From Tubiluchus corallicola (lineage: Eukaryota > Animalia > Priapulida): a DNA stretch of 19,097 nt. Every line of letters begins with the position of its first letter. The stretch's first letter is position 1. The position numbers were made by a program, and so were the translations under genes. The notes beneath the pieces are model-generated. The model saw only the letters and a list, made by a program, of their open reading frames with translations, was not told the origin of the DNA and searched no databases. Of this stretch, positions 1 through 19,097 are shown piece after piece. Location of the stretch: positions 1-19,097 of the forward strand of contig JAQGDQ010000641.1 of NCBI GenBank assembly GCA_030141605.1. Reading direction: 5' to 3'.

Positions 1-734
1 CTGTAGTTGATGGTGTGTCAATGTCAATACTTACTGACTAGAGGTAGCAGTAGTTTGTGACGAGGAACTGTAGTTGATGGTGTGTCAATGTCAATACTTA
101 CTGACTAGAGGTAGCAGTAGTTTGTGACGAGGAACTGTAGTTGATGGTGTGTCAATGTCAATACTTACTGACTAGAGGTAGCAGTAGTTTGTGACGAGGA
201 ACTGTAGTTGATGGTGTGTCAATGTCAATACTTACTGACTAGAGGTAGCAGTAGTTTGTGACGAGGAACTGTAGTTGATGGTGTGTCAATGTCAATACTT
301 ACTGACTAGAGGTAGCAGTAGTTTGTGACGAGGAACTGTAGTTGATGGTGTGTCAATGTCAATACTTACTGACTAGAGGTAGCAGTAGTTTGTGACGAGG
401 AACTGTAGTTGATGGTGTGTCAATGTCAATACTTACTGACTAGAGGTAGCAGTAGTTTGTGACGAGGAACTGTAGTTGACGGTGTGTCAATGTCAATACT
501 TACTGACTAGAGGTAGCAGTAGTTTGTGAGGAGGAACTGTAGTTGATGGTGTGTCAATGTCAATACTTACTGACTAGAGGTAGCAGTAGTTTGTGACGAG
601 GAACTGTAGTTGATGGTGTGTCAATGTCAATACTTACTGACTAGAGGTAGCAGTAGTTTGTGATGAGGAACTGTAGTTGATGGTGTGTCAATGTCAATAC
701 TTACTGACTAGAGGTAGCAGTAGTTTGTGACGAG
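1..734. repeat. 67-bp tandem repeat, ~11 near-identical copies, truncated by the left edge; overlaps an exon end and 5' splice site
   Basis: Unit ctgtagttgatggtgtgtcaatgtcaatacttactgactagaggtagcagtagtttgtgacgaggaa starts at 1, 68, 135 ... 671. I see only three variant positions (480, 530, 664). Confidence 0.98.
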
Positions 735-1207
735 ATGGGCGTTGATGTCTGCTGTCCACCTCCTCCATCAGAGCCGGAAGTCACCATCCCCGGGGTTGCT
801 TTTGACCTAGATAACGACGGTTTCCGTGGCGGCGTCCTGCTTGGCGAGACGTTCTTCTTGCTGGCCGACGTTTTACGAGGCTTCTGCCGATGTTCAACCG
901 GAGGTGCCGGAGCGCCGTCCGAAGACGACGATTCTTCCTCGATGCGACTAGCCGCCTGTCTGAGAGCATCGCTGACCTCGTCTCTCTTCTCTTCGTGCTC
1001 TTCTGGCGGCTCGTTCTCCTTATTTACTAAACCTTCAGCCTGGAAGTCTGCTTCGGAATTTTCCGGAGTTGGCGGGGTGGCTTCTTTTTCGTACGGCTGT
1101 GTTTCACGGTCCGGCGAGCACTCGGTTACCAAGATTTCTATACCGGTACAATCCTTGATTGTCGGCACCGTTAACTTGGAGCCAAGCTGACCCAGATAAT
1201 CAACTAT
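705..1207 (-). CDS. Internal coding exon of an ankyrin-repeat protein: end of an ankyrin repeat (IVDYLGQLGSK) followed by an acidic, Pro/Ser/Thr-rich low-complexity region
   Basis: GC-rich open frame. Acceptor TTTATTTAG|ATA at 1208/1207 (phase 0) and donor TCA|GTAAGT at 705/704 (phase 2). Joining it to exon 3196-3330 gives AYAQGCQE|IVDYLGQLG, which matches the ankyrin consensus A..G..eiv.yL...G. Confidence 0.85.
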
Positions 1208-1532
1208 CTAAATAAATTTAATAAAACGTAATAATATGTAATATCTAATAATACGTAATTAAAAGTAGTACAGATGTACAACGCACAAAATTAACTACAC
1301 GGAAAAATAATATACGTCTGGAAATTAAAGAATTTACTGATAGCAACCTGCACTGTGACCTAGTCAGTGTCATAGATAAGATTAGTGACCAGTTTCTCAA
1401 TTATAACTCGTTCGTCTATCGGACAGTAGTCACGTGCAAAATTTCCATCTGGAAAAAGTCATCTGGGAAGCATGTCAGCCAATAATTACGAAAGTTGAAT
1501 TTCAACAGTTTCATGTAATCATGCACATTTCG

Positions 1533-1660
1533 AGATTCAGATTCAGATAGTTTATTTCCACATGTTCAAATGTCACAAATTAGCACAATACTAAGTTGTC
1601 TAAATGTGGAAATAGGGCAGTGAAATACCAAGAGAGGTCATCAAATCAAACCGTCCTCAA
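1533..1660 (-). mobile_element. Short 3'-end fragment of a non-LTR retroelement (LINE/SINE tail)
   Basis: Minus strand reads stem-loop (1614-1657), then AAATAAACTA, then a (TCTGAA)n tail. The architecture and hairpin match those at 5946-5986 and 15677-15717. Confidence 0.6.
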
Positions 1661-2579
1661 CAGTGATGTCTGGTGTCTGAATCACACTGATGTCTGGATC
1701 ATAGTGATGTCTGGTGTCTGGATCATAGTGATGTCTGGTGTCTGGATCATAGTGATGTCTGGTGTTTGGATCACTGTGATGTCTGGTGTTTGGATCATTG
1801 TGATGTCTGGTGTTTGGATCATTGTGATGTCTGGTGTTTGGATCATAGTGATGTCTGGTGTTTGGATCATAGTGATGTCTGGTGTTTGGATCATTGTGAT
1901 GTCTGGTGTTTGGATCATTGTGATGTCTGGTGTTTGGATCGTAGTGATGTCTGGTGTTTGGATCGTAGTGATGTCTGGTGTCTGGATCACAGTGATGCCT
2001 GGTGTGTGGATCACAGTGATACCTGGTGGGTGGATCACAGTGATACCTGGTGGGTGGATCACAGTGATTGATGTGTGCTGTCTGAATCACAGTGATGTCT
2101 GGTGTTTGGATCGTAGTGATGTCTGGTGTCTGGATCACAGTGATGCCTGGTGTCTGGATCACAGTGATGCCTGGTGTGTGGATCACAGTGATACCTGGTG
2201 GGTGGATCACAGTGATACCTGGTGGGTGGATCACAGTGATTGATGTGTGCTGTCTGAATCACAGTGATGTCTGGTGTTTGGATCGTAGTGATGTCTGGTG
2301 TCTGGATCACAGTGATGCCTGGTGTCTGGATCACAGTGATGCCTGGTGTGTGGATCACAGTGATACCTGGTGGGTGGATCACAGTGATACCTGGTGGGTG
2401 GATCACAGTGATTGATGTGTGCTGTCTGAATCACAGTGATGTCTGGTGTTTGGAACACAATGATGTCTGGTGTTTGGATCACAGTGATGTCTGGTGTCTG
2501 GATCACAGTGATGTCTGGTGTTTGGATCACAGTGATGTGTGGTGTCTGAATCACACTGATGTCTGGTGTCTAGATCACA
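1661..2579. repeat. 24-bp intronic minisatellite (~38 units) with a 172-bp higher-order repeat
   Basis: Unit gatcacagtgatgtctggtgtctg with variants. The marker attgatgtgtgctgtctgaatc recurs at 2067, 2239 and 2411. Confidence 0.97.
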
Positions 2580-3195
2580 CGTGTCTAGATTATCACTAAT
2601 CAGGAAGGCAAGTCACTCATTTTCATGGCAAATCATGGAAGAAGGGATAAGAATGACAAACTGCAAAAAACTCTGAAACAGTCCGGAGGTTTTGGGGCCA
2701 CCTAGGCCCCCAATGGGGTTGAGGGGCCTTGGAGTCAGTAACAAATTGCAATTTTGTGACCATGGAGAGCCTGTAAGTGGACTTAAAATATCAATTACCT
2801 TGTTTCATGCATAATTTAAAATACTCAACTATCAAGGATACATGATACCTAATTGTCTCAAAAACACCTAAGTACTGGCCGCTCCTATGCAAAAGTATAT
2901 AAAAACTGTCTGCAATTGACTCAAATAACTCTGCACAATTGACTCTACATTTTTATACAAAGAGATAAACACGTGGTTACACTGATGTACGTGATGTAAA
3001 CAAAGTGACGGCCTGCCACCTAGCGGTCAGCTTGTGAAATAATGTAATGGATCCGTAAAAATTTTCTCAACGAATTTACGAGATTTACAAAAATGGCACC
3101 ACTGGTCTTCCAAAAACTCGGAATTCCACGTATCCGCGGAAAATTCTCATCCCTGCATGGAAGACGCTCAATTGTCTAAACGGGTCATTACCTAC

Positions 3196-3330
3196 CTCTT
3201 GGCAACCCTGCGCATAGGCAATGTCGACAACCTTCAAGCCATCGTTTGCTGCAATGTTGAAGTCAGCACCCAACTCTACAAGGGTCTTAAGTGTGTTCTT
3301 GTGTCCTTTACTGGCTGCCCAGTGCAATGC
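3196..3330 (-). CDS. Internal coding exon of an ankyrin-repeat protein (ALHWAASKGHKNTLKTLVELGADFNIAANDGLKVVDIAYAQGCQE)
   Basis: Clear ankyrin motif LH.AA..GH....+.L++.GAD.N....G. Acceptor TGTTGCAG|GCA and donor GAG|GTAGGT; 135 nt, phase 0-0. Confidence 0.92.
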
Positions 3331-3861
3331 CTGCAACATTGATAATGAAGTTAACAATAGCAGTATCGTATATATTAATTCTGCGGGTAAGTTATATATA
3401 TATATATAAGATTCGAGGCTACAGCTTCGACGACGGCACCATTTGCGGCGATCTATACATCAAACGAAAGGTCTCTATCTAGTGTCGTGCCATTGGGGGT
3501 TTATTTTTCGAATCGGGCCCACCGGGAGGAACGGGCCTACACGATGATGTGGGTTATATTTTAGGACATGTCCACTGAGAGGAGTACCGACGAGTTAATT
3601 AGATGTTCTATTTTTGGCAATTTTCGCTTGGAAAACTGCTGACGCAAAGCCATTGTTCTGACGTCATCCATTATACTCTGCTTATAACCTTATAAATTTA
3701 ATTCAGTAAAAGCTACTGGCTTTGCATTACGTTAGATAAATAAACAAACACTAGGTAGGATGTTCGCGCGTTGTTGTTTATAAGTGGATTTATAAGCAAA
3801 ATTTTTTGCGGGGCCTTTGCTAGTGTTAAATAACGCTAATTCAATGAGTATTTAAATTAAC

Positions 3862-4240
3862 AAGCCTTTTCACAGTTTCGTTGTGCGCGCGCATTGCTAT
3901 AGGTCAAAGGTTAATGAAGCAGTGCAACATGTGTTAACCACAACCGTCACGTGACATGTGGGTAAAGCAAAGCCGTCTGCCACTTCAATTCAGTAGCTTC
4001 AGTTGTTTTCTGTGGATTTTACCCAATTAGTCATTAGTCTGTGCGTAGAGTGATTTACTAGCAGGATCTTGTTTGGGAACAAGAAAAAATGAACTAGGTA
4101 AGGCTCCAGCTAGCTGTCAACTGTTACTATCACAATAGCTTTGGCTGCGAGGCGTTGTCAAGTGTACACAAATGCATTGTCTGGTACACTTAACCTTTGA
4201 CCTTTTCACGATCATCATCAATCGCTGAAATTGTGAAAAG
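3862..4240 (+). mobile_element. ~380-bp MITE-like dispersed repeat (family copy 1)
   Basis: Left end AAGCCTTTTCACAGTTTC is complementary to the right end GAAATTGTGAAAAG (AACTGTGAAAAGGCTT in the copy ending at 15181). Subterminal inverted pair GGTCAAAGGTTAA / TTAACCTTTGACC. Homologous to 7037-7381 and 14815-15181. Confidence 0.75.
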
Positions 4241-4409
4241 ACTAATACATAATTAAGTAAAATCCACATAAAACCACTGAAGTTACTGAATTAAAGTGGC
4301 AGACGGCTTTGCTTTATCCACATGTCACATGGCTGTTGTAGCTAACACACATAGCTGTTTGACATAACCGGTGACATATAGCAACAGCATGTGCGCACAA
4401 TGAAACTGT
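4239..4409 (-). mobile_element. Inverted partial copy of the same MITE-like family
   Basis: Diverged reverse complement of about 3871-4040 (for example gtggcagacggctttgcttt versus aaagcaaagccgtctgccac). Confidence 0.8.
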
Positions 4410-4933
4410 CACTGAATTTGATAACAGCTATAGAAACATGAATTTGCAATGTAAATAAGCATTCCTTGTTGTATGGAGTATTCTAAGGCAGTCTAAATCA
4501 CTCTAGTGAAGAAGTTTAACTAAATCACTCCACCTCTCTGACTGACAAATTAAAGAAGCATTGCCTGACGAATCACCATCACAAAGTCAAGATTGCACAG
4601 TTTACTCCAGCTTTATTCAGAGCAGGTGCAAGCTTAAATAGCACCTGCATTTTTGTTTAGATTATTTTTAAAAGCGCAAGGGTTTTATTTGCAATTTGGA
4701 CTCAAATCTATAATTATTAGACATCGATTGCCAGTAGAAATTGATTTTTAAGATCACGGACGCGTTTGACCAACGAGCAGTTTTGCCAGCAACCCGTTGC
4801 TGTAGCAACCAGACTAAGTACGTAGGGAAAATTCCCAAGGTCGCCCTAGGGCTTGACACAGCAGTGTTTATATTTCAACCGCTGACTGGGTTTAATTGTT
4901 ATCGTAGAAGAAACCGCTATAGCTACGTATTAA

Positions 4934-5347
4934 CCCTTTCAGTCCCAATTTATTTTTTAATAAGAAAAATTTTTTTGGCTTGATACTTTTGTTCCCAATG
5001 TATCCTGTGGGATGCACAACATTCTTTGTCATATGCAAAAAACACAACAAAAGCAAAAAATGTGCTTCATTCTGTAACTGCTGATAATTTTTTAAAGTAT
5101 TTAAGACATTTAGTATGCATGCTATGCTGATCTGTACAAAGTCGTCTCTAAAGTACTGTACCTTGCACAGTTTTTTATGCTACGTAGATTTTCTAGTTTG
5201 CCATTTTATCACCATTTTTAGTCAATTGTTATTGGCTTAAATCAAAATAACTATTAACAGATCAAATAACTGTCAGTTTTAAAATTTTATTAATTTTAAA
5301 GGCAGAAATATTCTCCTATCGCACGGGATACAACGGGTATGAAAGGG
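4934..5347. mobile_element. piggyBac-like non-autonomous element (MITE), 414 bp
   Basis: TTAA|CCCTTTCA ... TGAAAGGG|TTAA, with TTAA at 4930-4933 and 5348-5351. Asymmetrically placed subterminal inverted repeats at 4994-5013 (cccaatgtatcctgtgggat) and 5318-5337 (atcgcacgggatacaacggg). No transposase ORF. Confidence 0.85.
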
Positions 5348-5351
5348 TTAA

Positions 5352-6234
5352 AGTAAAATATATAGATGGTTTCAGGCAAACAGGAAGACATTAATCAGTA
5401 GAAATATGAACAAAACTCATACTAGAATGTGTAACTTACATGATTCAAACCATACTGATTTTTATCTCTGGTACGTATCACAATTCTGTCAATGGAAGTC
5501 TTCTCTTATGATTATTTTGCTCACTGTTTCACAGTTATCATTAAGTTTTTATTATATTTTTTGAGCCATATAGTCTATTTAGTCACATAGTCAAATTTCA
5601 CTACATATTTTGTTTGCTCCATTTTTCTGCACTAGTTCTTGTGCTGCATAGTATCTTATCATTACGCTTAATTTGACACGATTGCATATCTTTGCTTCAT
5701 TATATTTTGTTTGAGTTTATCAAACGTATTTTGTTTCTTTCACTGTTTTATTATTTATGTTTTTTTTGGTTTGACGGTTAGTTAAATGCTCTACATATTT
5801 TGTCAATCATCATTTCATATTTTTCATTTTATTTCTTTATCGCATAGCATACTTAGTTATTTCGCTTTCATGTTTAATGTTTCCCCCCATAAATTCATGT
5901 TAACAGCAGCACCACAAATTTTTTACAATTTTCACTAACCTGAGAAGGGTAGCTGACTCGATGACCAATTGGTCTTTCGCTACCCTTTCTCCTGCACCCC
6001 CCCCTTAACTCTTTCCTTTATGCTTAATTTATCCTTTTTAATCAATAACTAAAAAAATAATAGTCAATTTGTATACAGGTGTAAATGAGGAGATAAATAA
6101 AAATGTCTATGTCTATGTCTATGTCTATGTCTATGTCTATGTCTATGTCTATGTCTATGTCTATGTCTATGTCTATGTCTATGTCTATGTCTATGTCTGT
6201 CTATGTCTATGTCTATGTCTATGTCTTTGTCTAT
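5352..6234 (+). mobile_element. Degenerate 3' portion of a non-LTR retrotransposon (CR1/L2-like) with a microsatellite tail; 5' limit uncertain
   Basis: T-rich 3'UTR-like sequence, stem-loop at 5946-5986, and AATAAA immediately followed by (TGTCTA)n. A weak RT-like remnant WFQANR...NKT lies near 5367-5420. Confidence 0.6.
6103..6234. repeat. (ATGTCT)n hexanucleotide microsatellite, ~22 units
   Basis: Directly visible. Confidence 0.98.
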
Positions 6235-7036
6235 CTTCATTTAACAACGTTTCACTTAAGGCTGCGTTTTATCAGAACGCTTCAGCATCGTTAAGTGAGG
6301 ACTTACTGTACTTAAAACAGACTAGTGCTGTGATAAGATCAATTGTAACAATCCCAGCGTGTGTGATGCCAGAACTTAGACAAAACTGGTTTTGTTATCT
6401 ATTATGACCTATACCTGGTATTTACCATCTTAATCTATTCTTAGCAAATCTATCAGTGGAGTAAATTATTTATTTTGTTAAGTTCAGGAAGCTGCTGTAC
6501 TAGAAGAATGCATTTTAGTGTATTCCACTGATACCTGAGGGTGAAAATTGTTTATGAAACACGTAAAAAACTTGTGCAAATCTCGTGTTATACATGATCA
6601 TAGCATCTGGTGACTTACAATTTACTCAGACGATGAAGTTTCTACTTGGAGTGAGGAATGATCACATTTAACAAGACTGAAACGTGAGTGCATTATATTC
6701 TGTACAAATTGGTAAGTAAATTAATTAACTCACTTATTAACTCAATAACTGAAAATTGGCAAAAGATGATATTGTGCTTTGAAAATTCTAAAACTAATAG
6801 TCATGAGAAACGTCCTAGTAACTCATTTTTAGTCGCATCGTCATGTGTAAATATGTAAATATTGCTTACCAAATGCTTCTCTTTGAACAAGCCTAGATCT
6901 CATTTATACCGACCCACGACGAAAATTACTGTAAAACACCCACAGTAACCTAATAACTTTGACAACTGAAAGTAAGGCTGAGACAGATTCATTTATAAAC
7001 ACATAAAAGTTGTTTATTTTGTTATAATTAGAAAAT

Positions 7037-7381
7037 TGTTGATGCATGTCAAAGATTAAGTGTCCACAGCAATGTGTCTTAACTACAACTGTCACATGAC
7101 AGTGGGTAAAGCAAAGCCGTCTGCAATTTTAATTCAGTAACTTCAGTTGGTTTATGTAGACTTTACTTAATTATGCATTAGTCTGTGCATGGAGTGATTT
7201 ACTAACAGGATCTTGCTTGGGAAAAAGAGAAAATGGACTAGGTGAGGTTCTAGTTACCTGTTAAAACTGTTACTATTACAATAGCTTGGACTGTAAGGTC
7301 TTGTCAAGTGTACGCAAATGTGTTGTCTGGTACACTTAACCTTTGACCTCAGCATCAAATGCTGGAACTGTGAAAACGCTT
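7037..7381 (+). mobile_element. MITE-like family copy 2 (left end missing)
   Basis: Homologous to about 3895-4240; ends ggaactgtgaaaacgctt. Confidence 0.75.
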
Positions 7382-7710
7382 ATCATTTTGGTATTTTTGG
7401 CAAAGAAAATTAGTGTAGCACTATGTATCGTGTCCTAAGTACAGAAATTATAACCTTTTTTGAGCATAAGGCCTTAGTCAAGCTGATTACAAAGTAAGGC
7501 TAAGACAAACACATAAAAGTTGTTTATTTTCTAATAATTATCTGATTATTAGATAGATATTAGGCATTAGATATAGATATTAGAGCAATATTTAAAACTA
7601 CATGTGCATCTTCTGTATGACTAAGCAGGAATGCACTCAATATAACAGTGAAGCATCACACACACGAACTAGTCTTAATGATTATTGGTTGGTTTTGTAA
7701 TTGAGTTTTC

Positions 7711-7977
7711 ACTTAGATATCGTGGTATACACTTAGATATCGTGGTATACACTTAGATATCGTGGTATACACTTAGATATCGTGGTATACACTTAGGTAT
7801 CGTGGTACACACTTAGATATCGTGGTATACACTTAGATATCATTGTATACACTTAGATATCGTGGTATACACTTAGATATCGTGGTATACACTTAGATAT
7901 CGTGGTAAACACTTAGATATCGTGGTATACACTTAGATATCGTGGTAAACACTTAGATATCGTGGTATACACTTAGA
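7711..7977. repeat. 20-bp minisatellite, ~13 units
   Basis: Unit acttagatatcgtggtatac, the same as in 16196-19097. Confidence 0.98.
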
Positions 7978-8148: not shown

Positions 8149-10575
8149 ATGGAAATGCTGAGTTTAATGCAAATGCTGTTTCTCAATCTCCTACTTGGAG
8201 TAACACTTGTTGGTAGTTGTGGATGGTCAACCACATCGGGCTCTCAGTTCCAGCACCGGGTCACGCAAAGCAGACGCACTGGTGGTGATGTTGCAGATAG
8301 TGGGTACAGCCATGGTGTCAGCTTGGGAGGAATGGGTGGTGATGTTGCAGGTAGTCATGGTGTCAGCTTGGGAGGAATGGGTGGTGATGTTGCAGGTAGC
8401 GGGTACAGTGGTGGACAAGGAGACTGTGCTTTTGTAGGTAGTGGATACAGTCGTGGACAAGCAGACAGCAGTTTTGTAGGTACTGGGTACAGTAGTGGAC
8501 AAGGAGACAGTGCTTTTGTAGGTAGTGGATACAATCATGGACAAGGAGACAGTGCTCTTGTAGGTAGTGGGTACAGTAGTGGACAAGGAGACAGTGCTTT
8601 TGCAGGTAGTGGATACAATCATGGACAAGGAGACAGTGCTCTTGTAGGTAGTGGATACAATCGTGGACAAGGAGACAGTGCTCTTGTAGGTAGTGGATAC
8701 AATCGTGGACAAGGAGACAGTGCTCTTGTAGGTAGTGGATACAACCGTGGACAAGCAGACAGAGCTTTTGCAGGTAGTGGATACAGTCGTGGACAAGCAG
8801 ACAGAGCTTTTGCAGGTAGTGGATACAATCGTGGACAAGGAGACAGTGCTTTTGCAGGTAGTGGATACAATCGTGGGCAAAGAGACAGTGCTCCTGCAGG
8901 TGCTGGGTACAGTAGTGGACAAGGAGACAGTGCTTCTGTAGGTAGTGGATACAATCGTGGACAAGGAGACAGTGCTTTTGCAGGTAGTGGATACAATCGT
9001 GGGCAAAGAGACAGTGCTCCTGCAGGTTGGTACATAGTGGACAAGGAGACAGTGCTTCTGTAGGTAGTGGATACAATCGTGGACAAGGAGACAGTGCTTT
9101 TGCAGGTAGTGGATACAATAGTGGACAAGGAGACAGTGCTTTTGTAGGTAGTGGGTACAATCGTGGACAAGGAGACAGTGCTTTTGCAGGTAGTGGATAC
9201 AATCGTGGCAAGAGACAGTGCTCTGAGGTTGGTACATGTGGACAAGGAGACAGTGCTTCTGTAGGTAGTGGATACAATCGTGGACAAGGAGACAGTGCTT
9301 TTGTAGGTAGTGGATACAATCGTGGACAAGGAGACAGTGCTTCTGTAGGTAGTGGATACAATCGTGGACAAGGAGACAGAGCTTTTGTAGGTAGTGGATA
9401 CAATCGTGGACAAGGAGACAGTGCTTCTGTAGGTAGTGGATACAATCGTGGACAAGGAGACAGTGCTTCTGTAGGTAGTGGATACAATCGTGGACAAGGA
9501 GACAGTGCTTTTGTAGGTAGTGGATACAATCGTGGACAAGGAGACAGAGCTTTTGTAGGTAGTGGATACAATCGTGGACAAGGAGACAGTGCTTTTGCAG
9601 GTAGTGGATACAATCGTGGACAAGGAGACAGTGCTTCTGTAGGTAGTGGATACAATCGTGGACAAGGAGACAGTGCTTTTGTAGGTAGTGGATACAATCG
9701 TGGACAAGGAGACAGTGCTTCTGTAGGTAGTGGATACAATCGTGGACAAGGAGACAGTGCTTCTGTAGGTAGTGGATACAATCGTGGACAAGGAGACAGT
9801 GCTTCTGTAGGTAGTGGATACAATCGTGGACAAGGAGACAGTGCTTCTGTAGGTAGTGGATACAATCGTGGACAAGGAGACAGTGCTTCTGTAGGTAGTG
9901 GATACAATCGTGGACAAGGAGACAGTGCTTCTGTAGGTAGTAGATACAATCGTGGACAAAGAGACAGTGCTCCTGCAGGTGCTGGGTACAGTAGTGGACA
10001 AGGAGACAGCGCTTCTGCAGGTAGTGGAAACAGAGGTGTGCATCGAAGTAATTTTCTCAATGAAGGCACCGTTAAAAATCGTAGGACGTACGTTTATAAC
10101 AAATTCAGACAAACCAAAGATCATCACAGACATGCAATCGTAGGTTTACAACCAAAAGGCACAAATGTAGGCGCTAACATAAACTCCGGGAACATGCCAA
10201 ATGATCATGCATATCCTAAAAGGTATACAGCACAAAGAAACATACGCACTCGTGCAAGTAACAAGCCATCCTCAGAATTCATTGGACAACGCACAGATCT
10301 GGAAAGGGCACTTGCAGAAATCAATGGACAACATGCAGAAATGGGAAGATCTGTTGCTCACGGGCCCGGATCCCGAGCTGGGGAATCATTATATTTTAGA
10401 GAGGACTGTAGTGTATTTTACAGACTGTTCAACCAGCTGGATAATCGATATGATCTACTTCAGCACAGAAGTTACGATCTTGACGCCAACAAACTTGTGA
10501 CCCTGGCAGAAGTGGAAGCGGTACTTGGCAGAAGGAGCGACGTAATGCAAGTCTTTGCCAGTGTCGACTGTGACG
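8149..10575 (+). CDS. First coding exon of a secreted Gly/Ser-rich tandem-repeat protein with C-terminal EF-hands; apparent frameshift near 9027-9037
   Basis: ATG lies 6 nt after an acceptor-like TGTTTTAG (AG at 8141-8142). Hydrophobic signal peptide MLFLNLLLGVTLVGSCG. ORFs 8149-9063 and 9027-10583 carry the same 14-aa repeat in different frames. EF loop DLDANKLVTLAE starts at 10476. Donor GACG|GTACGT at 10575/10576 (phase 1). Confidence 0.88.
8413..10028 (+). repeat. 42-bp coding tandem repeat (~38 units) encoding GQGDSA(S/F/L)(V/A)GSGYNR
   Basis: Unit ggacaaggagacagtgcttctgtaggtagtggatacaatcgt; most homogeneous over 9240-9940. Confidence 0.97.
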
Positions 10576-10785
10576 GTACGTGATTATGCTGTTAAAATGA
10601 GTTTACTCCCATGCATTAGCATTGATTTTGTGTATTCATTGATTTTAGGTAAAACGGCAATTCTCCATATCCATTTGCAATTTCTGTTAACAGATGATAC
10701 TAAAGTTGAAAATGTCCCCCCCCCATACACAATCAGATTTACAAGTTATACCACATAGCTGCCATACATGTATATATATGGCAGC

Positions 10786-12838: not shown

Positions 12839-13002
12839 TATTAAAGAGAAAAAACCAGCATCTTAACAGGGCAACCTGAAATGCAAAGAGCTATAACTCG
12901 GGCCACACACGGCGAACAAACCACACAAGAACTACAACGGACAGTTGGCTCCCTCAAGAGTGACTTCAAAAACAAAGACAGCAGAGCAACAGGCTTTAGC
13001 TG

Positions 13003-13729
13003 TCAAATTAATCAATTAGATGATTTAATTAAATTGAATATTGCAGTATTCATGTATAAATCCAATAATAGACTATTTCCTAAGTTTCTTGCAATTCCTG
13101 TCAAATTGACATCTAAGAGACATAATACAAGATATAATCAATACATTGTGCCTTTCTGTAGAACCAACATAGCTAAACATTTTATAATATATCAAGGACC
13201 AAAAGTCTGGAATGAGATTTGTCAATCCGGAAAAAATAGCAGATCTATTAGTAGATTTAAAAAAAAATGCTAAAAAATCAAATTTTATGTAAGTATCAGT
13301 GAGTAATCAAAACTACTATCAGTATCCATCCTCACAGTAGTTGCAAAACAGCGGTGTTAGCTTAATCAAGTTATCTTAATTTTACATACTATTAACAAAT
13401 AATAGTCTTTCTATCTTTTATATCATCTCATATATGAGCTTCATTCATTACATCATTCCGTTTTAAGCACTACTGTTTTTTATCACACGATTCACTTTAA
13501 ATTTTCAGATTATTTCCATTACTTTTTCTATCACTGTGTGGGACAATCTAACAAGCCCTGCTTTTTGATTGCCCGCAACACATTTACATTTGTATATAGG
13601 TGAACAGTGTTTGAGGCTTTTCCTGTGCAGTATTTCTTATTTGTATTATGTTCATTGTAGGCCCTTTCACTAGATATTGTACATGAAACTATTGTGAATG
13701 TGTAATGTGAAATAAATGACTTATGACTT
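13003..13729 (+). mobile_element. 5'-truncated LINE (CR1/L2-group): ORF2 C-terminus, 3'UTR and tail
   Basis: Peptide ...FMYK...FPK...HNTR...P.CRT...I.YQGPKVWNEI....K...SISRFKKK matches the typical post-RT C-terminus of this group. Hairpin near 13538-13576 and tail GAAATAAATGACTTATGACTT. Confidence 0.85.
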
Positions 13730-14814
13730 CTGAGAGTTGTCAAGTGTCTTGTACAGTAAGGAGTGGCGGCTCATAGCTAAAATTACTGGGGGTGCTGCTT
13801 CAGAAAAATTTTAGCTATTATTTCAATTCTGTTTAAAACATAACAAACGTGTAATTTTAATGTTGTAGTTTTATTTGAAGATCTGGTGTTGAACGACCTC
13901 TTTTATTAACTGCAACTTTCTCATAGAGAGGCAACTGTGAAAAATTAAGCTGATGCAGTCACAGAACTTATTTCTTGGGGATGGAAGGCATCCATTATTA
14001 GATAATTTATGTTTTAAGCACGCACGCTAAGTTTACACTTTTTCACATCCAAGAATATGTGTAAATGTGTAAGGTGAAATAAATGACTTATGACTTATGG
14101 CTAGTGCTGTGATAAGATCAATTGTGACTATCCCAGCGTGCATGATGCCTGACTGTAAAACTTAGCCAAAACTGGTTTTATTATATGATAAACCTGGTAT
14201 TTACCATCCTAATCTATTCTTAGCAAACCTATCAGTCGAGTAAATTATTTATTTTGTTAAGTTCCAGAAGCTGCTGTACTAGAAGACTGCATTTTAGTGT
14301 ATTCCACTGATACCTGAGGGTGAAAATTGTTTATGAAACACGTAAAAAACTTGTGCAAATCTCGTGTTATACATGATCATAGCATCTGGTGACTTAAAGT
14401 TTACTCAGACGATTAAGTTTCTACTTGGAGTGAGGAATGATCACATTTAACAAGACTGAAACGTGAGTGCATTATATTCTGTACAAATTTGTAAGTACTT
14501 TAACTCACTGGTTTTCAATAACTGAAAAATGGCAAAAGATGAGATTGTGCTTTGAAAATTCTAAAACTAATAGTCATGAGAAACGTCCTAGTAACTCATT
14601 TTTAGTCGCATCGTCATGTGTAAATATGTAAATATTGCTTACCAAATGCTTCTCTTTGAACTAGCCTAGATCTCATTTATACCAACCCACGACGAAAATT
14701 ACTTACAGTGTTCCTTAACAGATGGGCACATACCTTCTGAAGGTAGAGTCACATGACAATCACGTTTTCAATTTATTGCGAACAAACTTTATTCTGAATT
14801 GTGAACAGACTTAT

Positions 14815-15181
14815 TTTCGATGTGCGCACGTACCGTTGCTGCATATCAAAGATTTTAAGTGTCCACAGCAATGTATCTTAACTACAACCGTCACCTGACA
14901 TGTGTGTAAAGCAAAGCCATCTGCTGCTTTAAATTCAGTAACTTCAGTTGTTTTACACGAACTTTAGTTAACTATGCATTAGTCTGAGTATAGAGTGATT
15001 TAATTGCAGGATTTGTTTGGGAACAAGAAAAAATGAACTACGTAAGGCTCTAGCTAGCTGTTAAAACTGTTATTATTACAACAGCATGGGCTGAGAGGCA
15101 TTGTCAAGTGCATACAAATGTGTTGTCTGGTACACTTAACCTTTGACCTCAGCATCAATTGCTGGAACTGTGAAAAGGCTT
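14815..15181 (+). mobile_element. MITE-like family copy 3
   Basis: Homologous to about 3876-4240; ends ggaactgtgaaaaggctt. Confidence 0.75.
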
Positions 15182-15410
15182 ATTATTTTGGTATTTTAGG
15201 CAAAGAAACTTAGTGTAGCACTATGTATCGTGTCCTAAGTACAGAAATTATAACCTTTTTTGAGCAAAAGGCCTTAGTCAAGCTGATTACAAAGTAAGGT
15301 TAAGACAGATTCATTTATAAACACATAAAAGTTGTTTATTTTCTAATAATTATCTGATAGCAATATTTAAAAGTAAATGTGCATCTTCTGTATGATTAAG
15401 CAGGAGTGCA

Positions 15411-15505
15411 GTAAGTAGGTAGGTAGGTAGGTAGGTAGGTAGGTAGGTAGGTAGGTAGGTAGGTAGGTAGGTAGGTAGGTAGGTAGGTAGGTAGGTAGGT
15501 AAGTA

Positions 15506-15543
<38 letters not shown>
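15411..15543. repeat. Compound tetranucleotide microsatellite (GTAG)n-(GTAA)n-(GCAA)n
   Basis: Directly visible; it forms the tail of the retroelement. Confidence 0.97.
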
Positions 15544-16116
15544 TATCTTTATTTATCACATTTTTTTACAAGACAAACACAATGCATGGTACGATAATAT
15601 GGTAATATGATACAAAGTGACAAGGTTATTAAATGAATAAATTATCTGAGTTAATGGTGTTCAAGTGATTGGTGAAAGGGTGGCGAAAAACTAAAAGTTA
15701 CCAAAGTCAACCACCCTGTAAGTAATGTTGCTATTATTAATTAATCATATGCGCAATTATCTTGATGAAGATTTTCAGAATAGTGAATGGTGAATAGATT
15801 AATGAATAGTACTAATGGCTACATATATATATTTATACATACATATATACACATAGATACACGTGCATATATTATATACCCAAATGGATACCCATGCGCT
15901 TATTTATGCACATATACATACACACATATATATACACGTAAATATGCCTACCTAGCAGAAAAAAGTAATAAAAAAAACAAAGTTGTTAAGACTATCAGGC
16001 AATAGGGGTATAGACATAACATAATGTACAATTTCACAAGTAGCAGTGCAATTATATATATATATAAAGATGTCATTGTTACTATTTCCTTTTAACTATT
16101 TCTATAGTAAAATTCA
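15411..16116 (-). mobile_element. ~706-bp 5'-truncated non-LTR retroelement insertion
   Basis: Absent from copy A (empty site caggaatgcactcaatataac near 7626-7646) and flanked by tgca at 15407-15410 and 16117-16120. Minus strand shows a stem-loop (15677-15717), then AATAAAGATA and a microsatellite tail. Confidence 0.85.
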
Positions 16117-16195
16117 TGCACCCAATATAACAGTGAAGCGTCACACGCACGAACTAGTCTTAATGCTTATTGGTTGGTTTTGTAACTGAGTTTCT

Positions 16196-19097
16196 ACTTA
16201 GATATCGTGGTATACACTTAGATATCGTGGTATACACTTAGATATCGTGGTATACACTTAGATATCGTGGTATACACTTAGATATCGTGGTATACACTTA
16301 GATATCGTGGTATACACTTAGATATCGTGGTATACACTTAGATATCGTGGTAAACACTTAGGTATCGTGGTATACACTTAGATATCGTGGTATACACTTA
16401 GGTATCGTGGTATACACTTAGATATCGTGGTATACACTTAGATATGGTGGTATACACTTAGATATCGTGGTAAACACTTAGATATCGTGGTAAACACTTA
16501 GATATCGTGGTAAACACTTAGATATCGTGGTAAACACTTAGATATCGTGGTATACACTTAGGTATCACGTATACACTTAGGTATCGTGGTATACACTTAG
16601 ATATGGTGGTATACACTTAGATATCGTGGTATACAGTTAGGTATCGTGGTATACACTTAGATATGGTGGTATACACTTAGATATCGTGGTATACACTTAG
16701 ATATCGTGGTATACACTTAGGTATCGTGGTATACACTTAGATATCGTGGTATACACTTAGGTATCGTGGTATACACTTAGATATCGTGGTATACAGTTAG
16801 GTATCGTGGTATACACTTAGATATCGTGGTATACACTTAGATATCGTGGTATACACTTAGATATCGTGGTATACACTTAGATATCGTGGTATACACTTAG
16901 ATATCGTGGTATACACTTAGATATCGTGGTATACACTTAGGTATCGTGGTATACACTTAGATATCGTGGTATACACTTAGATATCGTGGTATACACTTAG
17001 ATATCGTGGTATACACTTAGATATCGTGGTATACACTTAGATATCGTGGTATACACTTAGATATCGTGGTATACACTTAGATATCGTGGTATACACTTAG
17101 ATATCGTGGTAAACACTTAGATATCGTGGTATACACTTTGGTAACCTTAGTATTGGTATACTGTATCGTGGTTCCTTAGATATGTGATCATGATATCGGG
17201 ATATACACTTAGATGTCGTGGTATACATTTGATGGTGGTATACCTTAGATATGGGTATCACTTAGTTATCACTTAGATATCGTGGTATACTTAGATATCG
17301 TGGTAAACACTTAGGTATCGTGGTATACAGTTAGGTATCGTGGTATACACTTAGATATGGTGGTATACACTTAGATATCGTGGTATACACTTAGATATGG
17401 TGGTATACACTTAGATATTGTGGTAAACACTTAGATATCGTGGTAAACACTTAGATATCGTGGTAAACACTTAGATATCGTGGTAAACACTTAGATATCG
17501 TGGTATACACTTAGATATCGTGGTAAACACTTAGATATCGTGGTATACACTTAGGTATCGTGGTATACACTTAGGTATCGTGGTATACACTTAGATATGG
17601 TGGTATACACTTAGATATCAGGATATACACTTAGATGTCGTGGTATACACTTAGATATCGTGGTATACACTTAGATATCGTGGTAAACACTTAGATATCG
17701 TGGTATACACTTAGGTATCGTGGTATACACTTAGGTATCGTGGTATACACTTAGATATGGTGGTATACACTTAGATATGGTGGTATACACTTAGATATCG
17801 GGATATACACTTAGATGTCGTGGTATACACTTAGATATCGTGGTATACACTTAGATATCGTGGTAAACACTTAGATATCGTGGTATACACTTAGGTATCG
17901 TGGTATACACTTAGGTATCGTGGTATACACTTAGATATGGTGGTATACACTTAGATATGGTGGTATACACTTAGATATCGTGGTATACACTTAGATATCG
18001 TGGTATACACTTAGATATCGTGGTATACACTTAGATATCGTGGTATACACTTAGATATCGTGGTATACACTTAGATATGGTGGTATACACTTAGATATCG
18101 TGGTAAACACTTAGATATCGTGGTAAACACTTAGATATGGTGGTATACACTTAGATATCGTGGTATACACTTAGATATCGTGGTATACACTTAGATATCG
18201 TGGTATACACTTAGATATCGTGGTATACACTTAGGTATCGTGGTATACACTTAGATATCGTGGTATACACTTAGGTATCGTGGTATACACTTAGATATCG
18301 TGGTATACACTTAGATATCGTGGTAAACACTTAGATATCGTGGTATACACTTAGGTATCGTGGTATACACTTAGATATCGTGGTATACACTTAGTATCGT
18401 GGTATACACTTAGATATCGTGGTATACACTTAGATATCGGGATATACACTTAGATATCGTGGTATACACTTAGATATCGTGGTATACACTTAGATATCGT
18501 GGTAAACACTTAGATATCGGGATATACACTTAGATATCGTGGTAAACACTTAGATATCGGGATATACACTTAGATATCGTGGTAAACACTTAGATATCGG
18601 GATATACACTTAGATATCGTGGTAAACACTTAGATATCGGGATATACACTTAGATATCGTGGTAAACACTTAGATATCGGGATATACACTTAGATATCGT
18701 GGTAAACACTTAGATATCGGGATATACACTTAGATATCGTGGTAAACACTTAGATATCGGGATATACACTTAGATATCGTAGTAAACACTTAGATATCGG
18801 GATATACACTTAGATATCGTGGTAAACACTTAGATATCGGGATATACACTTAGATATCGTTGTAAACACTTAGATATCGGGATATACACTTAGATATCGT
18901 GGTAAACACTTAGATATCGGGATATACACTTAGATATCGTGGTAAACACTTAGATATCGGGATATACACTTAGATATCGTGGTAAACACTTAGATATCGG
19001 GATATACACTTAGATATCGTGGTAAACACTTAGATATCGGGATATACACTTAGATATCGTGGTAAACACTTAGATATCGGGATATACACTTAGATAT
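16196..19097. repeat. 20-bp satellite array, at least ~145 units, truncated by the right edge
   Basis: Unit acttagatatcgtggtatac. Scrambled patch near 17135-17290; strict 40-bp dimer from 18491. Confidence 0.99.

What the first reader, a model, noticed from the sequence alone, without database searches (positions are those of the whole stretch)
1..734. Tandem repeat that reads as an array of in-frame 33-nt micro-exons and 34-nt GT-AG micro-introns
Seen in sequence: on the minus (sense) strand each 67-bp unit splits into GTAAGTATTGACATTGACACACCATCAACTACAG (34 nt; consensus donor, two TTGAC branch-like motifs, CAG end) and TTCCTCGTCACAAACTACTGCTACCTCTAGTCA (33 nt). The 33-mer is a phase 2-2, stop-free copy of the real exon's end and would add HSSSQTTATSS per unit. 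Both variants I see in the exon-like part (530 and 664, the same unit position) are synonymous Ser changes (TCG to TCC or TCA). Unspliced read-through hits TAA at 701-703. Inference: at minimum the gene has 11 or more tandem identical 5' splice sites; at most this is a VNTR-built cassette array that tunes the length of a Ser/Thr tract. A 34-nt intron is below the usual animal minimum and the polypyrimidine tract is poor, but skipping units gives frame-preserving introns of 101, 168 nt and so on.
Basis: partly seen in the sequence, partly recalled or inferred. Interest (0 to 1): 0.8.

Follow-up and report, generated by a model that had tools for sequence, protein, structure and literature searches.

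The report
Splice-donor minisatellite in ankyrin-gene intron
The last 30 bases of a predicted exon of an animal ankyrin-repeat gene and its splice signal are copied head-to-tail at least 11 times into the next intron, a repeat type already known from human, lancelet and chicken genes, and the cell likely splices mostly at the first copy instead of using the copies as mini-exons, which is untested in RNA here.

Summary
Bases 1-734 are 11.0 copies of a 67-bp unit (99% alike). On the minus strand they give 11 GTAAGT donors, and each unit parses as a 34-nt GT..CAG piece plus a stop-free 33-mer. The unit is the last 30 nt of a predicted coding exon (1207-705) of an ankyrin-repeat gene plus 37 nt after its donor.

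The micro-exon reading is weakly supported. Donor, frame and peptide come free with such a duplication. An in-frame YAG cassette arose in 28-32% of simulated junction units (8-9% keeping the whole tail; 2.5% for the exact 34/33 geometry). The acceptor is T-poor, and both synonymous variants hit the unit's only CpG. No RNA test was possible.

Best reading: an exon-intron-boundary minisatellite like human F7 IVS7, lancelet 'mirages' and chicken 'exon stuttering', likely spliced mainly at the first donor; downstream donors would give stop-containing messages. This scan has noted the same kind of array in other genomes. New member of a known kind; about 7% chance of a real micro-exon ladder.

The parts
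1..734 (-). 67-bp minisatellite, 11.0 copies, running off the window's first base; unit = 37 nt starting at the donor + 30 nt of exon end
705..1207 (-). predicted internal coding exon, 503 nt, phase 0-2, low-complexity E/S/P/T-rich linker (IVDYLG...TTATSS); its last 30 nt are the seed of the repeat
   Evidence: ORF; tttag|ATA acceptor and TCA|GTAAGT donor; 2 of 2 variants of run X1 in this exon are synonymous third positions
699..704 (-). first (predicted authentic) donor GTAAGT; holds the read-through TAA at 703-701
   Evidence: only 4 of 677 background stop triplets lie in this context
671..704 (-). intron-like 34-mer of unit 1 (GTAAGT...CAG); candidate branch A 10 or 16 nt from the donor G; T-poor 3' end
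638..670 (-). exon-like 33-mer of unit 1; would add HSSSQTTATSS if spliced in; variant at 664 lies in the unit's only CpG
29..637 (-). ten further identical GTAAGT pseudo-donors at 637, 570, 503, 436, 369, 302, 235, 168, 101, 34; direct use leaves the TAA at 703-701 in the message
   Evidence: donors 2-4 computed
3196..3330 (-). upstream predicted exon, 135 nt, phase 0-0, ankyrin repeat (ALHWAASKGH...GCQE), in frame with exon 1207-705 across a 1,988-nt intron
   Evidence: Pfam Ank E 4.7e-05, above cut-off; splice sites; intron length; 1 of 1 listed X1 variant synonymous

Best explanation
A 67-bp stretch spanning the end of a predicted exon and the start of the next intron of an ankyrin-repeat gene is tandemly repeated at least 11 times, likely through ordinary minisatellite expansion, and the spliceosome likely uses the first donor (704) and removes the whole array as part of one intron. 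Shown: the array, its unit anatomy, the 11 donors, the in-frame stop after each donor. Inferred: one duplication seeded the array and slippage or unequal exchange amplified and homogenised it; the ten downstream donors are mostly silent pseudo-sites; occasional use of the second or third donor would keep the TAA at 703-701 and give truncated or decay-targeted messages; the CAG that makes each unit look like intron + micro-exon is a chance intronic trinucleotide carried along with the unit.
For: The unit is exactly exon tail (30 nt identical to 734-705) plus intron start. TRF arrays cover 7,788 of 19,097 bases (41%) of the window, so this genome expands local sequence readily. Chance cassettes are common in simulated junction units: 28% (intron >=30, exon >=9) and 32%, 20,000 draws each. 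The real unit also holds a second in-frame parse, TAG with a 64-nt intron and 3-nt exon. The micro-acceptor has 20% T in the 20 nt before CAG (18th percentile of 299 background YAGs) against 45% and 60% (89th and 99.7th) at the gene's two predicted real acceptors. Variants show no intron-versus-exon contrast: 2 in the exon-like part at one CpG site and 1 in the intron-like part. A 97-nt contig of run X1 (67+30, as a looped unit gives) reads through the unit unspliced with a further variant at 684 that none of the window's 11 copies carry, consistent with array turnover; X1 behaves as genomic DNA and may be the source sample. Precedents: F7 IVS7, LMNB2 and PDGF use only the first donor; IFI6 (6-16) and CBS also use two pseudo-sites (PMC1557585); lancelet mirages do not disturb splicing (PMC3087553, PMC3902484); 236 chicken introns carry exon-end copies (PMC12954441).
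Against: The exact geometry is uncommon: 8-9% of simulated units keep the whole exon tail in a cassette and 2.5% reach at least 34/33. Total pyrimidine content of the micro-acceptor is not low (55%, 70th percentile, against 60% and 65%; 7 of 12 pyrimidines at -15..-4 in all three), and the comparison rests on two predicted acceptors. The first-donor rule was shown in mammalian cells and for lancelet genes, not in this animal. Human repeats at exon-intron boundaries can generate new introns and alternative splicing (PMC2812944), and PMC3087553 proposes that a mirage copy can become an exon. The downstream exon lies outside the window, so the intron's end is not seen.
Confidence: 0.78

Rival explanations
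1. Micro-exon ladder: the CAG in each unit works as an acceptor, so 34-nt introns (or 101, 168 nt when units are skipped) are removed and 1-10+ copies of HSSSQTTATSS are added to a disordered Ser/Thr linker; array length would set isoform length.
For: Frame, phase 2-2 and absence of stops all fit. Skipped-unit introns of 101-235 nt are of ordinary size. Each 33-mer has a full GTAAGT donor behind it. Exact geometry in only 2.5-9% of simulated units. Validated animal introns of 30-40 nt exist (PMC4675715). Exonisation of a mirage copy has been proposed (PMC3087553).
Against: T-poor acceptor. Candidate branch A only 10 or 16 nt from the donor. Synonymy rests on one CpG site, and 8 of 33 sites are fourfold degenerate anyway. 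The host gene's introns in the window are long (1,988 nt and at least 704 nt), unlike the compact parasite genomes where introns under 30 nt are usual (PMC6543705, PMC13644364). Reported analogues that were tested splice past the array.
Confidence: 0.07
2. Leaky-donor rheostat: the second and third donors are used at a sizeable rate, as in IFI6 and CBS, so copy number diverts part of the message into stop-containing forms (protein ending ...TTATSSQ*) and tunes gene output.
For: All 11 donors have the same hexamer and 30-nt exon-side context. Use of donors 2-4 keeps the stop at codon 169 of the exon frame. IFI6 and CBS use two pseudo-sites besides the authentic one (PMC1557585 introduction; originals not read).
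Against: F7, LMNB2, PDGF and the lancelet genes use only the first donor. Nothing in the sequence points to selection for such use.
Confidence: 0.1
3. Exon 1207-705 is the last exon, the protein ends at TAA 703-701 and the array is 3' UTR or downstream DNA; the GTAAGT is accidental.
For: The ORF ends at that TAA, and no downstream exon is visible because the window stops in the array.
Against: Only 4 of 677 background stop triplets sit in a GTAAGT context (0.6%), whereas any phase-2 GTAAGT donor gives this in-frame stop. No AATAAA or ATTAAA in the array's sense strand.
Confidence: 0.04
4. The copy number is inflated or set by the assembly (a looped 67-mer), so the real locus has only a few copies. 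This does not exclude the best explanation.
For: Full units 5-10 and the last partial unit are identical to the consensus, and the window ends inside the array.
Against: Units 1, 3 and 4 carry private variants, and other arrays in the window are resolved with much internal variation (e.g. 146.5 x 20 bp at 90%), which suggests reads long enough to span 734 bp. Run X1 shows at least two donors in tandem.
Confidence: 0.08

Closest known systems
Human F7 intron 7 37-bp VNTR with 5' pseudo-sites; also IFI6 (6-16) intron 2, CBS intron 13, LMNB2, PDGF intron 4 (Borensztajn et al. 2006, PMC1557585; abstract, outline and 12 of 26 passages seen; the other four genes known only from its introduction)
   Same: The first monomer spans an exon-intron boundary, so an identical donor is repeated down the intron; copy number in the same range (5-9, 10-15, 15-20, 16-18, 25 pseudo-sites).
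   Different: Here the unit carries 30 nt of exon (F7: 4 nt) and a CAG placed so that the unit parses as intron + in-frame micro-exon; donor choice is untested; the host is an invertebrate.
Lancelet 'mirages' in Adh3, globins BflGb6/BflGb9, troponin C, PGBD5 (PMC3087553, 6 of 6 passages; PMC3902484, 4 of 4 passages)
   Same: Minisatellite-like tandem copies of an exon-intron boundary in an invertebrate; many carry AG/GT signals; units 10-160 bp; length differs between haplotypes; concerted evolution; reported not to disturb splicing.
   Different: This array is more homogeneous (99%) than BflGb6 (81-100%); polymorphism and silence are not shown here.
Chicken dot-chromosome 'exon stuttering' (Hron et al. 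2026, PMC12954441; 12 of 15 passages)
   Same: The edge of a coding exon with its splice site seeds a repeat that runs into the neighbouring intron, in DNA rich in local tandem repeats (41% of this window).
   Different: Chicken copies in the example shown are imperfect (up to 20% from consensus) and mostly on dot chromosomes; here near-perfect.
Human internal tandem repeats that create new introns (De Grassi and Ciccarelli 2009, PMC2812944; 8 of 8 passages)
   Different: Those cases have transcript support and lie in segmental-duplication paralogs; the passages seen describe no ladder of one micro-exon per unit.

Membership tests
Exon-intron-boundary minisatellite (F7-type pseudo-site array / mirage / exon stuttering) | Head-to-tail repeat with a minisatellite-size unit | tested here: met
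   67 bp x 11.0, 99% matches
Exon-intron-boundary minisatellite (F7-type pseudo-site array / mirage / exon stuttering) | First monomer spans an exon-intron boundary and the splice site is reiterated in the intron | tested here: met
   30 nt of exon end + GTAAGT in every unit. The exon is predicted from ORF, splice sites, frame continuity with an ankyrin exon and synonymous variants, not from cDNA
Exon-intron-boundary minisatellite (F7-type pseudo-site array / mirage / exon stuttering) | Length or sequence variation between alleles | tested here: inconclusive
   Run X1 has a unit variant at 684 absent from the window's 11 copies; contig depth is no copy number, so length variation is not shown
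Exon-intron-boundary minisatellite (F7-type pseudo-site array / mirage / exon stuttering) | Splicing uses the first donor alone or with the nearest pseudo-sites | not testable with these tools
   Needs RNA of this species covering the gene
Functional micro-exon array | Short exons of 3n length, symmetric phase, no stop | tested here: met
   33 nt, phase 2-2, stop-free; also met by 8-32% of simulated junction units
Functional micro-exon array | Acceptor resembling the gene's real acceptors | tested here: inconclusive
   T content far lower (20% vs 45% and 60%), total pyrimidine similar (55% vs 60% and 65%); two predicted comparators only
Functional micro-exon array | Selection signature: intron parts drift while splice signals and codons are kept | tested here: inconclusive
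   Only 3 variant events in 734 bp; the 2 exon-like ones share one CpG site
Functional micro-exon array | Inclusion in mature RNA; conserved tract in orthologs | not testable with these tools
   Needs RNA and an ortholog; see Tried and rejected

The most novel reading that the evidence does not exclude
A single duplication of an exon end captured an in-frame CAG, and minisatellite expansion turned it into a ladder of 10+ identical cassette micro-exons. The spliceosome enters the ladder through 101-, 168- or even 34-nt introns, so a VNTR sets, allele by allele and transcript by transcript, the length of a Ser/Thr linker behind an ankyrin domain. That would be exon birth by mirage expansion caught in the act.
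Probability: 0.07. Interest if true: 0.7.

Novelty: new member of a known kind. Interest (0 to 1): 0.17.

Why it matters
As an ordinary splice-donor minisatellite it adds one more invertebrate case to a class known from human, lancelet and chicken, and it is a ready natural test of whether the first-donor rule holds outside chordates. If the 33-mers are spliced in, it would show a VNTR creating a graded set of protein isoforms and would confirm the proposed route from mirage repeats to new exons and introns (PMC3087553). I did not see that route demonstrated per unit in the papers returned.

Tried and rejected
No whole genome is held, so the array's far end and the next exon could not be read.

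RNA: no RNA holder listed (2 runs, X1 with 0.69 of the words, X2 with 0.00). This blank says nothing on expression. X1 behaves as genomic DNA: a 293-nt contig spans the ankyrin exon and both flanks (3129-3425), and intronic repeats are very deep. X2 laid 0 contigs on 638-1640 and 27 on 2600-6090, the listed ones in high-depth intronic repeat bins, with zero depth in the bin holding most of the ankyrin exon. No joint was seen on 638-1640, but contigs drop rare forms, and only 1.4 units of the array were in the stretch laid. X1's unit contig has depth 33 against 10-19 for exon contigs; this would fit a shorter allele, but the tool states that depth is no copy number, so I do not count it.

Orthologs: none. 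P0002 gave 0 of 982 (longer) and 0 of 67 (near) candidates. Its single hit among 1.84 billion representatives, P0004, is an unrelated repeat protein with a signal-peptide-like start and no ankyrin domain; rejected. P0001 gave only generic ankyrin matches, so the gene is unnamed. No further ankyrin exon was found in the window.

Other blanks: exon-tail 30-mer 0 matches in metagenome contigs; Rfam 0 matches in 1-3500; no unusual RNA fold over 3.5 units (z -0.46, 62 of 200 shuffles as stable); no look-alike among earlier scan windows.

Considered: that the unit's intron-like half is a decayed copy of exon sequence upstream of 734 (shared CATCAAC). Score 18, reached by 159 of 5,000 shuffles and nearly (17) elsewhere in the exon; inconclusive. 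A recursive-splicing ratchet was rejected because no YAG abuts GTAAGT directly; TAG lies 3 nt before it. Paper searches for priapulid intron sizes and minimum invertebrate intron length gave nothing on this taxon. Supplements were not read; the mirage alignments in PMC3087553 additional file 4 might show units with the same in-frame parse.

Full report
Observation. The first 734 bases are a tandem array of a 67-bp unit, 11.0 copies, 99% matches, no indels. On the minus strand each unit starts with GTAAGT (704, 637 ... 34) and divides into a 34-mer ending CAG and a 33-mer; there are 11 of the former and 10 complete copies of the latter.

Host gene. The array abuts a 168-codon ORF that begins at a tttag|ATA acceptor at 1207 and ends at TCA|GTAAGT at 705/704. 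Upstream, 3330-3196 is a 135-nt phase 0-0 exon encoding an ankyrin repeat (Pfam Ank E 4.7e-05), in frame with the second exon across 1,988 nt. All 3 of 3 exonic variants listed for public run X1 are synonymous third positions, which supports coding. The donor at 704 is likely real: 4 of 677 background stop triplets lie in a GTAAGT context. No ortholog was found, so the gene is unnamed. Unchecked notes on other pieces of this genome call the animal priapulid-like; I did not test that.

Anatomy of the unit. The last 30 nt of each unit are identical to the exon end (734-705); the other 37 nt start at the donor. Such a duplication supplies the donor, the phase and a stop-free tail automatically. 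In 20,000 simulated units per setting, built from this exon and this window's intron background, a YAG cassette with intron >=30 and exon >=9 nt arose in 28% and 32% over mixed unit sizes. With the whole tail kept it arose in 8-9%, and at >=34/>=33 in 2.5%. The exact geometry is therefore mildly uncommon but was chosen after the fact, and the real unit holds a second in-frame parse (TAG, 64-nt intron, 3-nt exon).

Quality of the signals. The 20 nt before the CAG have 20% T, the 18th percentile of 299 background YAGs, against 45% and 60% at the two predicted real acceptors. Total pyrimidine content is similar (55% vs 60% and 65%), which weakens this argument. The TTGAC motifs put a branch A 10 or 16 nt from the donor, and a YTRAY motif is found in 28% of background 28-nt windows. 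Both synonymous changes hit the G of the only CpG in the unit, and 8 of 33 sites are fourfold degenerate; 27 of 99 possible single changes are synonymous. That CpGs mutate fast is general knowledge, not tested for this genome. So there is one informative site and no selection signal. A 34-nt intron is possible in animals (floor 30 nt, validated cases at 30-40 nt, PMC4675715, 12 of 19 passages), but the shortest are typically 50-90 nt, and introns under 30 nt are usual only in two parasitic lineages (PMC13644364, 10 passages; PMC6543705, 2 passages).

Other DNA. Run X1 behaves as genomic DNA and may be the source sample. It holds a 97-nt contig, the length a looped 67-mer gives with 31-letter words, that reads through donor, CAG and 33-mer unspliced and carries a variant at 684 that the window's copies lack. 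This supports a real tandem repeat and hints at turnover. TRF arrays cover 41% of the window, so a repeat landing on an exon edge is not surprising here.

How it most likely works. One duplication of the junction (inferred) was amplified and homogenised as a minisatellite (inferred). The spliceosome likely takes the first donor and removes the array within one intron (inferred from analogues). Direct use of later donors keeps the TAA at 703-701 (shown for donors 2-4), so leakage would give truncated or degraded messages, not longer proteins. Probabilities: 0.78 for this reading, 0.10 for sizeable leaky-donor use, 0.07 for a micro-exon ladder, 0.04 for a terminal exon; inflated copy number (0.08) is compatible with the first.

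Known kinds. PMC1557585 (abstract, outline, 12 of 26 passages) describes this layout in human F7 and lists IFI6, CBS, LMNB2 and PDGF: only the first donor, or that plus two pseudo-sites, is used. Lancelet mirages (PMC3087553, PMC3902484) often contain AG/GT signals and are reported not to disturb splicing, although PMC3087553 proposes that a copy can be exonised. Chicken exon stuttering affects 236 introns in 115 genes (PMC12954441). PMC2812944 shows that human boundary repeats can form new introns. The original IFI6, CBS, LMNB2, PDGF, Adh3 and troponin C papers were not read. The structural membership criteria are met; silence and polymorphism are untested. Earlier notes of this scan report the same kind of array in mussel, snail, urchin, annelid and other genomes; they are unchecked and served only as leads to the mirage and stuttering papers. 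One of them (e1-10614089) reports possible splicing from a copy inside an array, which keeps the rival readings open.

Verdict. A real feature and a new member of a known kind. Interest 0.17; 0.7 if RNA shows the 33-nt ladder (probability about 0.07).

Noticed in passing
window 8149-10580 (+): A long coding-like stretch on the opposite strand, upstream of the ankyrin exon and possibly nested in the same gene's intron: signal-peptide-like start (MEMLSLMQMLFLNLLLGVTLVG), about 39 copies of a 42-bp repeat (GSGYNRGQGDSAFV type), then an EF-hand-like end (weak Atlas matches 0.88-0.90, no Pfam hit). The frame changes once between about 8988 and 9060, which may be an assembly slip or a real break. 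Likely a secreted Gly/Ser-rich matrix protein.
   Followed up: partly
window 6322-7977 and 14101-16462: A locally duplicated block (87-95% alike in pieces), both copies ending in the same 20-bp minisatellite (13 copies at 7710-7977, 146 at 16196-19097); parts recur at 3872-4409.
   Followed up: no
window 12845-13273 (+): 142-codon ORF that resembles the C-terminal end of a LINE reverse transcriptase (resemblance recalled; Pfam gave no hit).
   Followed up: no
window 1-734 and 16196-19097: Both ends of the window lie inside tandem arrays, which suggests the piece is a contig broken at repeats; TRF arrays cover 41% of it.
   Followed up: partly
window 2600-3160, 3400-4350, 4820-6090: Intronic stretches with contig depth in the hundreds to tens of thousands in run X1: high-copy dispersed repeat families flanking the ankyrin exon.
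   Followed up: no
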